From: Octopus vulgaris
Lineage: Eukaryota
NCBI GenBank assembly: GCA_951406725.2
Contig: OX597833.1
Coordinates: 26,598,001 to 26,662,000 of the forward strand
DNA: 64,000 bases
Reading direction: 5' to 3'
Shown here: positions 4,780 through 53,219 of the stretch, one piece after another
Numbering within the stretch: position 1 is the first letter of the stretch
Layout of the letters: each line of letters begins with the position of its first letter
Position numbers and translations under genes: made by a program
The notes under the pieces: model-generated
What the model saw: the letters and a program-made list of their open reading frames with translations, nothing else
Databases searched by the model: none
What the model was told of the DNA's origin: nothing

Positions 4780-5047
4780 GAATGGTTGCATACTGTCAAT
4801 CTAACACGAACGTGACAGTAGGGGGGTACACCACCGCTGTATAGCCCTAGGAAGCATCGACGCCTCCTGATGGCTTTGACACATTTTTCCCTGTGTCCTT
4901 ATATACATAAATGTAAATAAATGTATATAAAGACACAGGGGAAAATGTGTCAAAGCCATCAGGAGGCGTCGATGCTCCTAGGGCTATACAGCGGTGGTGT
5001 ACGCCCCTACTGTCACGTTCGTGTTAGATTGACAGTATACAACCATT

Positions 5048-5239: not shown

Positions 5240-6188
5240 TGTATATGTACATACATATGCACTTATAGACATGCATATGTGCGCATCTGTATATATTAAC
5301 AGCAAGAGAGGGGGAAATTTATAGAAATATAAGGAGGGAACCAACAACCTGTCAAAAACACAAAATGATTTTTAAAGTTGTCACAAACTCCCATCTCTGA
5401 TATGTTTTCGGATAAATAACGCTTGTAACTAATTCGGTTACTATGCATCGGTAAGTGAATATCTGACGTCATATGTACTGTGGGTAAATCTCTGCATTTT
5501 GTCAAAATCATTGAATATATTAAAGGATGACGTAACTCACTAGACCACCAAAATGCTTGCAACTCAATGGACATCTAAAACTAGGCATTGGTGTTACAAT
5601 GAGTTAACGTAGAAGCTTCTGATGGAAATGGTGGGAGAGTTACAAGGGAAAGTAGACAAAAACGGGAAAATTTTGTATGAATTGCACTGCAGAATGTGAG
5701 AGGTAGAACGAAAAGCTAGTTAAAATAACAGAATAACAAGAAACTCAACAACAACAACAACAACAAAACAATGATGTTGACTTTCATCATTAGCTTTCGG
5801 ACAAAATAAAGACAAAGGACGATGGGGATTTGCATAAACACAGGGAAACAATGAAAACCAAACCATAAACACATTTCCTGTTTTGACCCATAAACATCCG
5901 ACCTTTTCAAACAAAACACTACGCTTAAATATATGCATCCTAATCCTCCAAAGAAGTTTTTCCATGGTCTAATATTGAACTCTAAAAGCATAAAGATACT
6001 ACAATGTATTGGTATACTTATTTATTAATTTTTGTATATATTTAATATTATTTTGAAAAAAAAAACATTGTAATTTTCTTATTGTTGTATTTGGGGCCAG
6101 TTTAGCCAATAAAAACAAATTCACGATATATTTGGTGTTACTTTGTTTCAGCGTTATTTATTTTTTACATTAATCTTAATCTTATTTC

Positions 6189-6233
6189 GGCCAGAGTTCT
6201 TTCGTCACACTCCTGTGACCGCATCAGTGGTCC
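6189..6233 (-). ncRNA. Hammerhead-ribozyme-like motif (type I, variant core CUGAUGCG)
   Basis: Minus strand GGACCA-CTGATGCG-GTCAC aggagt GTGAC-GAAA-GAAC-TC-TGGCC. Confidence 0.5.
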
Positions 6234-6468
6234 TTTGCTTTCTTCTTTCTTATTTGTGTCTCTCCTTACTAACGGTCAGTCATTTTGTATTTTGTAGTTC
6301 TATTGTATGTCTTCATTTGCGCATGCGTATACCTCTATGTGTGTCTATGTTTAGGTAGTGTGTGTGGGGGGAAGTACATGTAATATTTGTATCTCCTGTT
6401 TATATACGTTCGTGTAATTTGTTTTTGTTTTTGTTTATTTTTATTTTGTTCATGTGTTTACACCTACC

Positions 6469-6473
6469 TATTA

Positions 6474-6540
<67 letters not shown>

Positions 6541-21322: not shown

Positions 21323-21421
21323 GAATATATATATATGCATGTACATATATATAGATAGATAGATGAATAATGTACATGTAAATGGACTAAGCGGAGCAAG
21401 AGCATACACGAGGACGGAACG

Positions 21422-21465
21422 TGTCGCTGAAGCGGTCTCAGGTGTGGACGAAAGACTTCCGGACA
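21422..21465 (+). ncRNA. Hammerhead-ribozyme-like motif (variant core CUGAAGCG) in a short microsatellite-flanked element (~21365-21585)
   Basis: TGTCG-CTGAAGCG-GTC tcaggtgtg GAC-GAAA-GACT-TC-CGGACA. Confidence 0.5.
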
Positions 21466-21580
21466 ATGGACATGAGTTAGAATGAGAACAATAATAATAA
21501 ATGAGTGAAGAACGAATATATAATGTGTGTATGTAGCTGGCAAAGAAAAATGATAATAATAATAATGACCATACTGAAAT

Positions 21581-21620
<40 letters not shown>

Positions 21621-21621
<1 letters not shown>

Positions 21622-21949
21622 TGACATTTCGCTGGTTACGACGACGAGCGTTCCAGTTGATCCGATCAATGGAACAACCTGCTCGTGAAATTAACGTGCA
21701 AGTGACTGAGCACTCCACAGAATGTAGTTCTCAGGGAGATTCAGCGTGACACACAGTGTCCAGTTTGGCCTTATGAAATACAGATACAACGGAAACAGGA
21801 AGAAAAAATGAGAGACAGTTGTGGTGAAAACAGCGTGGAGCTTTAGATATTTTCGCTCAATAAATACTCGCAACCTCCGGTCTGGGAATCGAAACCGCGA
21901 TCCTATGACTGTGAGTCCGCTGCCCTAACCACTGGGCCATTGCGCCTCC
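21621..21949 (-). mobile_element. SINE family C (tRNA head GGAGGCGCAATGGCCCAGTGGTTAGGGCAG)
   Basis: Box A TGGCCCAGTGG and box B GGTTTCGATTCC; homologous to 26020-26313. Confidence 0.85.
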
Positions 21950-23627: not shown

Positions 23628-24563
23628 GATGAAGAAGAAACAACAAAAGCTATAAAACAAATGAAATCCAAACTAAAAATAGAACAGCAACGAGCCATGA
23701 TAAAACGATGGCAAGAAAAGCCCCTTCATGGTAAATACTGCACTAAACGCAAAAGAAATAGACAAAGAAAAATCCCAGCAATGGTTGAGAAGCTCAGGAC
23801 TCAAAGCAGAAACAGAGGGATTTTTAATTGCAGCACAAGACCAAAGACTCCCCACCAGAAATTACCAAAAACATGTAATGAAAAGAAATATTACAAGTAA
23901 CTGCAGAATATGTGGAGATGGACAAGAAACAATAAATCATATTATCTCTAGCTGCCCAGTCCTGGCTAAGAAGGAATATATTCACAGACATGACAGAGTT
24001 GGAACCTACATACATTGGAAGCTATGCCAACATTATGGAATAACAACAGAAAAAAGATGGTATAGGCACACACCAGAAAAGGTCACAGAAAACGAGAAAG
24101 CAACCATACTCCGGATATGCCGATACACACAGATAGAGAAATTAAGGCCAACAGACCAGATATAGTTGTCAGAGATCATGAAGAAAAAAATGCTTTCTAA
24201 TTGATGTATCACTACCGCCAGATGACAACGTGTCTCTAAAAAAAATGGAGAAACTCTCAAAATACAAAGACCTGGAAATAGAGGTAACTAGAATGTGGAA
24301 CCTGAAAACAGAAACAATTCCTATCATAGTAGGTGCATTAGGCATGATAAAAAAATATTCAGACGAATACATAACAAAAACACCAGGACTTACAAACACA
24401 TATAACATACAGAAAATTGCACTACTAGGCACTGCACACATCCTACGCAGAACACTTTCCATACAATAACCATCAGAGCATCACAACAAATCACAGCACA
24501 TACCCAAGGCACACAGAGCTGTGCTCGGTAGTGAAGTGAAAGCACGCTATAAAAATAAAACTT

Positions 24564-33353: not shown

Positions 33354-34409
33354 GGAAAGCAAAAAATTTGCTATTGATCTCGTGCAGGATACCCAAACTG
33401 AACAACCCAAGGCAACTATTGTTGCAAAGAAGGTGAAAATAATGGCAACGAAAAAAGCGCACGAGCAATTTGCTGATAGGTGGGAGGAGAAACCTCTGCA
33501 CGGCAAATATGTGACCCGCAGCAAACAAGCTGATGTTGACCAGAAGCAAACCCATCAGTGGCTACGGAGCTCAGGGCTAAAAGCAGAGAGCGAAGGTTGC
33601 TCAAGATCAAAGCCTATTAACCCGGAGCTACCAGGCCAATGTGAGGAAAAATGGAGCAGACCCAAAATGCCGATTCTGCAACGACATGATTGAAACAGTG
33701 GACCACCTAATCTCTGGATGTAAAGTCTTAGCACCAATGGAGTATAAATTAAGACATGACAGAGTTGGCCAATATCTCCACTGGCTAATAAGTCGGCATT
33801 ACAATATCAAAACTGCCGACAAGTGGTATAATCACCACCCTGAGGCTGTAACTGAAGGAGAAAATGTAACCATCCTGTTGGACTTTCCAGTACATACAGA
33901 CCGAACCATCAAGGCCAATAAACCAGATATTGTTGTGAAAGACCAAAACAATAAAGTTTGCTTATTGATCGACATGAGCATCCCCTGTGATCATAATATC
34001 TCAGCGAAAGAGTTTGACAAGCTCAGAAAATATAAAGACCTACTCATTGAAATTGAGAAAATGTGGCATCTCAAGGCGGTTACAATACCAGTGATCGTAG
34101 GAGCACTAGGAATGATCAAGAAGGGAACCGAAAATTATATGAGAATGATCCCTGGCTTACCATCCCTGCAAGAAGTGCAAAAGATTGTCTTAACTGGTAC
34201 GTCACACGTATTGAGAAGAGCATTGTCGATGTGAGAACTGTTGCTGCTCATGTATTTTAATTTAACTTAAAAAAAATTTTTTTTTTAAATGAACGAACTA
34301 TTGAGTTTGGTTTAATGGCCTACCAATGTATACTATGAGTTTCTTTGCCCTAGGAGTCAGGAAGACACTCGGCAAGAAATGGAAGCAAATTTGAAAGAAG
34401 AAAAAAAAA

Positions 34410-52015: not shown

Positions 52016-52563
52016 TAGTTTTATTTTTTATAGCGTGCTTTCACTTCACTACCGAGCCCAGCTCTGTGTGCCTTGGGTATGTGCTGTGATTTGTTGTGAT
52101 GCTCTGATGGTTATTGTATGGAAAGTGTTCTGCGTAGGATGTGTGCAGTGCCTAGTAGTGCAATTTTCTGTATGTTATATGTGATTGTAAGTCCTGGTGT
52201 TTTTGTTATGTATTTGTCTGAATATTTTTTTATCATGCCTAATGCACCTACTATGATAGGAATTGTTTCTGTTTTGAGATTCCACATTCTAGTTACCTCT
52301 ATTTCCAGGTCTTTGTATTTTGAGAGTTTCTCCATTTCTTTTAGAGACACGTTGTCATCAGCCGGTATTGATACATCAATTAGAAAGCATTTTTTTTCTT
52401 CATGATCTCTGACAACTATATCTGGTCTGTTGGCCTTAATTTCTCTATCTGTGTGTATCGGCATATCCCAGAGTATGGTTGCTTTCTCGTTTTCTGTGAC
52501 CTTTTCTGGTGTGTGCCTATACCATCTTTTTTCTGTTGTTATTCCATAATGTTGGCATAGCTT
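52013..52563 (-). mobile_element. R4/Dong-type 3' fragment (D1), near-identical to the 3' part of the 23628 copy
   Basis: PIHTDREIKANRPDIVVRDHEEKKCFLIDVSIP...EKLSKYKDL...LSIQ*; (TAA)n on both sides. Confidence 0.92.
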
Positions 52564-53219
52564 TATTATTATTATTATAATTATTATTATTGTTATTACT
52601 ATTATTATTATTATTATATTATTATTATTATCATTTTAATTTTTTTATATTCACATCATTATTGTTTTTGTTGTTGTTGTTGATGTATTATGGCGAAGGA
52701 GGTGGTGTTGGTGATGAGATAGAAAGTCCTACAGACAGATACTTTCCTCTTCGGCCAAGCCCGCTTGAACTTTTTCAAGTTCCACTTGAAATGGAAAGTG
52801 AGGGTAGGGAGGGACGCTCTGCTTTCCCACCACCAACACCACCACCACCATTACTACACCCAGCACGTTTGTTGAAAGATCGGTGACTGTGGAGAGGATG
52901 ATTCGTGTGAATTGATCTATTTGTAAACCGGAGGAATTGAGAAGTGAAGAGTTACTCGCTGAAGCCTACCTGGTGGTCGAACTAACCAGGATGTATAGGG
53001 TTCCTTGGTTGTCCCTGTTAGGAACTCCCCACTTTAGGCAACTTTTATTGTTTAACTTTTTTGTTAATTGTCATTGTTATGATTATATACGACATTGTGC
53101 CAAGATCTTCTTGTCCCTTGTGTTGTATTGCCCCTATTTGTTTTGTGTTCAGCACTTGTAGCCAATAAAAGAAAACATTATTATTACTATTATTATTATC
53201 ATCATCATCATCATCATAT

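What the first reader, a model, noticed from the sequence alone, without database searches (positions are those of the whole stretch)
21422..21465. Second CUGANGCG hammerhead-like fold with different stem sequences (copy 2)
Seen: same architecture as 6189-6233 (CUGANGCG, GUC..GAC stem II, GAAA, 4 nt, UC), but stem I is UGUCG/CGGACA (one bulge) instead of GGACCA/UGGCC and the flanks are largely dissimilar. The odd core is kept while paired sequences change, which is what selection on RNA structure would produce; this is inference from only two copies. I consider it the best candidate here for an undescribed ribozyme-bearing element family.
Basis: partly seen in the sequence, partly recalled or inferred. 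Interest (0 to 1): 0.7.

Follow-up and report, generated by a model that had tools for sequence, protein, structure and literature searches.

The report
Decayed Penelope retrotransposon hammerhead copy
This is a mutated end piece of an old, high-copy repeat, likely a Penelope-type jumping gene, whose other copies carry an already described kind of predicted self-cutting RNA motif; its odd core letter is likely a chance mutation rather than a conserved new design.

Summary
The motif is real, but the inference of a conserved odd core is wrong for this copy. Copy 2 lies in a 205-bp, 5'-truncated terminal repeat of an old Penelope-like element (PLE) family, B. That family's core is canonical: A at position 9 in 651 of 699 genome-wide matches, C in 14, about what background mutation gives (9.7 expected). 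Copy 2 also has three further changes in stems II and III, so it is likely a dead copy. Copy 1 belongs to a different, younger sister family, A, where C9 did spread: about 3,560 matches, against 867 without C. A family-A element has two terminal repeats around a 1,312-codon RT plus GIY-YIG frame. The shared C is likely a coincidence; one clade for all C9 copies is rejected. Minimal hammerheads with an extra nucleotide after position 9 in PLE repeats are published (PMC4209133). What remains of interest is family A's C9, with U17 in its youngest sampled copies. Activity is untested, and a genomic cut-site test was inconclusive. The scan noted altered cores in PLE hammerheads before, on other DNA.

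The parts
21381..21585 (+). 5'-truncated terminal repeat (pLTR) of PLE family B; a solo fragment with no RT or endonuclease remnant next to it
   Evidence: blastn to family-B loci starts at 21381; 161 of 189 positions match the family majority; tblastn with the family-A protein printed no window hit at E<=1e-4
21421..21465 (+). Minimal type I hammerhead motif with 5 differences from its family majority
   Evidence: (5 of 45 columns)
21427..21434 (+). Core C3-G8, position 9 (21433, C here, A in the family) and the extra G between 9 and 10.1 (21434)
   Evidence: contigs of three runs read mostly A at 21433
21435..21449 (+). Stem II and loop 2: 6 bp in the family; here weakened by a substitution at 21438 and a 1-nt deletion after 21446, with a loop change at 21442
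21450..21459 (+). GAAA, minimal self-complementary stem III (symmetry broken at 21456), U16.1 and C17; predicted cut after 21459
   Evidence: family hexamer pairs 6 of 6 with itself (2 wobble), copy 2 hexamer 4 of 6
21565..21585 (+). First seven codons of the element's reading frame, the usual 3' end of these insertions
   Evidence: resembles the start of the family-A frame; the same stretch follows most family-B motifs (listing)
21586..21619 (.). (AT)n microsatellite at the 3' junction, likely the insertion target
   Evidence: similar junctions in family-A loci
6096..6482 (-). Copy 1: terminal repeat of the younger sister PLE family A; hammerhead at 6188-6233 with the family's majority C9 core
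   Evidence: 86% identical to both terminal repeats of the intact element in L143; 51 of 53 diagnostic columns are A-type

Best explanation
Copy 2 is a 5'-truncated, mutated copy of a high-copy repeat family whose core is canonical, likely the terminal repeat of an old Penelope-like retrotransposon, and its C9 likely arose by neutral mutation after insertion. Shown: family membership, the family's A9 core, five differences from the family in 45 nt, RT and endonuclease remnants beside other family members. Inferred: the active ancestor was transcribed from tandem repeats; two neighbouring minimal hammerheads would pair through the self-complementary stem III and cut slowly, probably with help from the element's protein; reverse transcription primed at an (AT)n site stopped after about 205 nt and left this solo copy. 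With a changed A9, a damaged stem II, a broken stem III symmetry and no partner motif nearby, this copy is predicted not to cut. The sister family A fixed the same change independently in an active lineage.
For: Family B: 2,318 candidates, 40 scored, 77-87% identity. Position 9: A 651, C 14, G 14, T 20 (non-A letters counted by eye; the 14 C include copy 2 and one duplicated pair). Background at other conserved A columns: A 5,098, G 223, T 160, C 76, so 9.7 C expected, P(>=14)=0.11. Copy 2 is B-type at 43 and A-type at 3 of 53 diagnostic columns, within the 0-7 range of the other B rows. Tree of 58 rows splits A (23) from B (35) at 100/100; all C9 rows as one clade rejected, p-AU 4e-33; B-C9 rows as one clade rejected, p 0.024. 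L143 holds two same-strand motifs 4.6 kb apart around a 1,312-codon frame with RVT_1 then GIY-YIG matches and Atlas neighbours at 0.96-0.97 carrying HTH_animal, RVT_1 and GIY-YIG. Ten of 90 family-B loci hold RT or endonuclease remnants of this frame, mostly 50-70% identical, six of them upstream on the motif's strand; 15 of 90 hit its first 46 residues.
Against: Holding copy 2 together with family A was not rejected (p-AU 0.23), though that only places it at the base of an unresolved B group. Copy 2 shares two A-type letters inside the motif (C9 and a loop G), and one other B copy, L077, has both; a tiny C9 sub-lineage or a short conversion tract is not excluded. G at position 9 is rarer than the background predicts (14 seen, about 28 expected), so the background model is rough. 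Pfam scores for RT and GIY-YIG lie below the curated cut-offs (E 0.001 and 0.0025), and the full-length protein gave no family. The position-9 column was left in the tree alignment. No activity was measured.
Confidence: 0.9

Rival explanations
1. One reading: CUGANGCG is a conserved variant core kept by selection across unrelated stem contexts, marking an undescribed ribozyme-bearing element family that includes both copies.
For: C9 is the majority state in family A (3,564 pattern matches, against 867 non-C). The named fold is paired in 93.9% of cells over 35 distinct rows, with one compensated pair in stem I. None of 56 published PLE motifs has C9.
Against: C9 is 2% in copy 2's family. The compensated pair is one change between two families, one of which has A9, so it says nothing about C9. 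Stem II shows almost no covariation. The element has the published PLE layout.
Confidence: 0.03
2. Copy 2 took C9 and the loop G from a family-A sequence by a short gene-conversion or template-switch tract, or descends from a very small C9 sub-lineage of family B.
For: Two A-type letters lie 9 nt apart in copy 2; L077 has the same two.
Against: The diagnostic letters just outside (position 7, next loop position) are B-type, and a private change lies between the two (alignment). Three A-type columns of 53 is typical for B rows. B-C9 rows do not form a clade (p 0.024).
Confidence: 0.05
3. Copy 2 is a domesticated solo ribozyme with a host function at this locus.
For: A 95-nt contig identical to 21382-21476 stands in run X18, which carries another organism label.
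Against: 5 of 45 motif columns differ from the family, no fewer than the 15% over the whole copy; the changes hit paired and core positions; identity in a close relative is expected under neutrality.
Confidence: 0.02

Closest known systems
Minimal hammerheads (min-HHRs) in terminal repeats of metazoan Penelope-like elements (Cervera and de la Pena 2014, PMC4209133; read: parts 1-2 of 4 of the text, parts 1-2 of 3 of supplementary file 2)
   Same: Type I layout, short helix I, long helix II opening with G10.1-C11.1, an extra nucleotide between 9 and 10.1, tiny palindromic helix III, thousands of solo copies, opposite-strand pairs 100-700 bp apart, several families per genome.
   Different: Their consensus is CUGANGAH. 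Families A and B have G as the extra nucleotide (seen in 1 of their 56 examples, Nasonia). All 56 have A9; family A has mostly C9. Their search descriptor likely required A9, so this absence is biased.
PLE hammerhead variants with a short palindromic helix III (Drosophila virilis, rotifer, mosquito; same paper) and dimer-cleaving PLE hammerheads (Lunse, Weinberg, Breaker, RNA Biol 14:1499; not held, title seen only in a reference list)
   Same: A 2-bp helix III with a 2-nt loop that would pair between two copies.
   Different: Whether Lunse et al. list position-9 variants could not be checked.
C-terminal EN+ PLEs with a zinc-finger linker, Neptune or Nematis type (Craig et al., 10.1101/2021.04.23.441226; passages and section 11 read)
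   Same: Single frame with RT, then a CX4CX2C linker, then GIY-YIG with candidate CCHH residues (read by eye); tandem and inverted 5'-truncated copies; (TA)n junctions.
   Different: No RT tree was built, so the clade is not fixed. The family-A frame is long (1,312 codons) with an Asn-rich stretch.
Poseidon element of Anolis, PAc (PMC11167929; passages read)
   Same: PLE with a terminal-repeat hammerhead close to the start codon.
   Different: There, cutting needed the element's protein and catalytic mutants did not affect insertion in vitro. Nothing comparable has been measured for families A or B.

Membership tests
Hammerhead ribozyme (type I) | Core CUGANGA and GAAA | tested here: not met
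   Copy 2 has C at position 9. Met by its family: A9 in 651 of 699.
Hammerhead ribozyme (type I) | Three helices around the core, A15.1-U16.1 pair, NUH cut site | tested here: met
   93.9% of cells paired in 35 distinct rows, 22-51% when slid. In copy 2 stem II is damaged and the lone 44-mer does not fold this way by energy alone.
Hammerhead ribozyme (type I) | Match to an Rfam hammerhead model | tested here: not met
   0 matches at E<=10 over 21360-21520.
Hammerhead ribozyme (type I) | Self-cleavage after position 17 | not testable with these tools
   Contigs cannot show RNA ends; the genomic breakpoint proxy was inconclusive.
PLE min-HHR (PMC4209133) | Extra nucleotide between 9 and 10.1, G10.1-C11.1, long helix II | tested here: met
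   Extra G at 21434; 6-bp helix II in both families.
PLE min-HHR (PMC4209133) | Self-complementary minimal helix III | tested here: inconclusive
   Family B 6 of 6 self-pairs; copy 2 and copy 1 4 of 6.
Penelope-like element (EN+) | Single frame, RT plus C-terminal GIY-YIG, between terminal repeats | tested here: met
   Family A, L143 (Pfam scores below cut-off). Family B only as remnants in 10 of 90 loci; none at copy 2.
Penelope-like element (EN+) | Tandem and inverted, 5'-truncated insertions | tested here: met
   Outward-facing pairs among the first 100 matches; tandem in L143; 85 of 100 truncation junctions were called as inversions by a loose matcher.
Neptune or Nematis clade | CX2-5CxxC linker finger and RT phylogeny | tested here: inconclusive
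   Linker motif seen by eye; no tree with reference RTs was built.
Non-LTR retrozyme | Short non-coding tandem units, each with a hammerhead | tested here: not met
   No tandem array at this place; the motif is tied to coding elements.

The most novel reading that the evidence does not exclude
The real variant is in the sister family of copy 1. An active Penelope-like lineage replaced A9 by C, then C17 by U in its youngest sampled copies, and still made thousands of insertions with intact reading frames while keeping the fold. That would be evidence from a living genome that these elements do not need their hammerhead to cut, and keep it as a structural or protein-binding signal.
Probability: 0.35. 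Interest if true: 0.5.

Novelty: new member of a known kind. Interest (0 to 1): 0.2.

Why it matters
Copy 2 itself matters little: it is one decayed copy among thousands. It is a caution that a rare core letter shared by two copies can be coincidence, and that the copy's own family must be counted. The side result is more useful. Family A offers a natural series in one genome (A9/C17 older, C9/C17, then C9/U17) for asking whether PLE hammerheads must cut, which is open: in vitro rates are low (PMC4209133) and catalytic mutants did not block insertion in one in vitro system (PMC11167929).

Tried and rejected
Rfam: no match on the region; the 150 of 383 whole-window rows shown were microsatellite-driven miRNA and one viral UTR model, no hammerhead. 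Single-strand folding gave no support. Cut-site test, idea taken from earlier scan notes: family-A copies that lack the core AAA but keep the downstream part numbered 134 in the 11-nt window around the cut, against 61 and 98 in two control windows. In the 100 of 134 examined, the first matching base peaked at -2 (23) and +3 (18), with 4 at +1 and 6 at -1; most are inversion junctions where T-rich microhomology blurs the point. I treat this as inconclusive. Family B gave only 20 such copies, not analysed further. Expression: no RNA holder listed on record; four runs guessed to be RNA cover the family-A repeat as contigs but cannot show ends. PDB search gave nothing useful. No tRNA in the window. 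Literature: 'hammerhead' + 'A9C' gave 3 irrelevant papers; 'hammerhead ribozyme' + 'octopus' gave 4 listed, none seen to describe this motif; searches gave no measured A9C rate. Lunse et al. was not held. Supplementary file 1 of PMC4209133 could not be searched and part 3 of file 2 was not read; they may bear on the claim that C9 is not in print. Sequence look-ups in earlier findings returned nothing.

Full report
Observation. The pattern occurs twice in the window and in none of 100 shuffles. In the 2.8-Gb genome it occurs 1,764 + 1,800 times against 5 + 0 for the reversed pattern. So it is not chance. It is not supported by energy alone (z +1.05) and has no Rfam match, as expected for a motif with a 2-bp third helix.

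Two families, not one. The first 100 matches listed all have the 28-nt form of copy 1, and the 30 loci fetched share copy 1's flanks: family A. Copy 2's exact core-to-GAAA string stood alone among 11 matches of a pattern tailored to it. A DNA search with copy 2 and its flanks found a second family, B: 2,318 candidates, 40 scored, 77-87% identity. A tree of 58 terminal-repeat rows separates A (23 rows, with copy 1) from B (35 rows, with copy 2) at 100/100. Of 53 columns that tell the families apart, copy 2 is B-type at 43 and A-type at 3; other B rows have 0 to 7 A-type columns. The family majorities are 124 of 186 identical, so the two copies are homologous sisters.

The core of family B is canonical. 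Among 35 nearest relatives, chosen by overall similarity, position 9 is A in 33, G in 2 and C in none. Genome-wide, with the family-B stem I as anchor, it is A in 651 and not A in 48: C 14, G 14, T 20, counted by eye, the C's including copy 2 and a duplicated pair. Other conserved A columns read A 5,098, G 223, T 160, C 76. That predicts 9.7 C (P of 14 or more = 0.11). It also predicts about 28 G where 14 were seen, so the background is rough. Contigs from three public runs read A at 21433 in 148 of 155, 153 of 187 and 1,065 of 1,233 depth units; the fourth run did not cover the place. Forcing all C9 rows into one clade is rejected (p-AU 4e-33), and so is a clade of the 9 family-B C9 rows (p 0.024). 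Forcing copy 2 next to family A is not rejected (p 0.23). Copy 2 and L077 share C9 and a loop G, so a tiny sub-lineage is not excluded.

Copy 2 is decayed. It differs from its family at 5 of 45 motif columns: position 9, a stem II substitution (21438), a loop change (21442), a 1-nt deletion in stem II (after 21446), and a change at 21456 that breaks the self-complementary stem III (6 of 6 self-pairs in the family, 4 of 6 here). Over its whole length it differs at 28 of 189 positions. The motif is thus no better kept than the flanks.

What the element is. In L143 two family-A motifs lie on one strand 4.6 kb apart around a 1,312-codon open frame. Its second half matches RVT_1 (E 0.0013) and then GIY-YIG (E 0.0025), both below Pfam's cut-offs; Atlas neighbours at 0.96-0.97 carry HTH_animal, RVT_1 and GIY-YIG. 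By eye it has YVDD, a CX4CX2C linker and a GIY-YIG motif, the layout that Craig et al. give for Neptune and Nematis PLEs. Of 90 family-B loci, 10 hold RT or endonuclease remnants of this frame, mostly 50-70% identical, six upstream on the motif's strand and four inverted, and 15 hit its first 46 residues. Copy 2 runs from 21381 to 21585, ends in the first codons of the frame and abuts an (AT)n tract. It is the 3' tip of an insertion.

Structure across families. On 35 distinct rows the named fold is paired in 93.9% of cells, against 22-51% when slid. The pair that closes stem I is G-C in B and A-U in A. This is one compensated change inherited by many rows, and the tool warns that its shuffle control ignores relatedness. 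It supports a kept fold in the ancestral elements. It does not support a kept C9, since family B has A9.

Mechanism. Shown: family, layout, decay. From the literature: PLE min-HHRs have an extra nucleotide between 9 and 10.1, long helix II and palindromic helix III; single motifs did not cut, and dimers cut slowly (PMC4209133). In the Anolis element, cutting needed the element's protein and was not required for insertion in vitro (PMC11167929). Core changes mostly lower activity (PMC3088659 section 8; PMC9901934 passages), but I found no measured rate for A9C; that A9 pairs with G12 is recalled. Inferred: the family-B ancestor had a weak, dimer- or protein-dependent hammerhead, and copy 2 is an inactive fossil of it.

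The part worth keeping. In family A, C9 is the majority; 867 matches lack C, of which the first 100 listed are 92 A and 8 T by eye. A9 rows are further from their own majority (median 5.7%, n=8) than C9 rows (2.4%, n=13), and family B is older still (10%, n=23). Twelve of 30 loci, six inverted insertions, also have U at position 17, as do both repeats of the intact element in L143. All 56 motifs in figure S3 of PMC4209133 have A9, one of them with an extra G, but their descriptor likely required A9, and Lunse et al. could not be read. My test for copies starting at the cut site was inconclusive. Earlier notes of this scan report altered cores in other PLE families, in this genome and others; they are unchecked and are not support, but they suggest that such variants are common.

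Other papers seen: PMC6765202 and PMC6155905 (passages), PMC13282606 (passages; 0 occurrences of ribozyme or hammerhead), 10.64898/2026.07.22.740005 and PMC7151607 (abstract and outline).

Verdict. Real motif, known kind of element, decayed copy, coincidental core letter. Novelty: new member of a known kind. Interest 0.2.

Noticed in passing
L014-L030, L143 (family A): A young family-A subfamily combines C9 with U at position 17 (12 of 30 loci, six inverted insertions) and includes an element with an intact 1,312-codon frame.
   Followed up: partly
L162-L281 (family A truncations): 17 of 100 truncated copies share nearly the same fold-back junction between the 3' strand of stem I and an inverted stretch near the start codon (counted by eye), likely a favoured template switch.
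   Followed up: partly
genome-wide, family B position 9: G is rarer than the background predicts (14 seen, about 28 expected) while C and T fit. Unexplained.
   Followed up: no
L143:2513-6448 (-): The family-A protein carries a long Asn/Ser/Gly-rich stretch (about residues 255-510) ahead of the RT.
   Followed up: no
window 4858-4971: Near-perfect 114-nt hairpin with about 45-bp arms, MITE-like (alignments).
   Followed up: no
window 23704-24560, 33581-34234, 52020-52635: Fragments of another retrotransposon family: zf-RVT matches at 23704-24162 (above cut-off) and 33581-34231 (below), and a 377-nt, 97% inverted pair at 24184-24560 and 52020-52396.
   Followed up: partly
window 21620-21945: GC-richer stretch right after the (AT)n tract that looks like one or two short interspersed repeats; not tested.
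   Followed up: no
window 21382-21476: A 95-nt contig of run X18, which bears another organism label, is identical to this stretch, private changes included.
   Followed up: no
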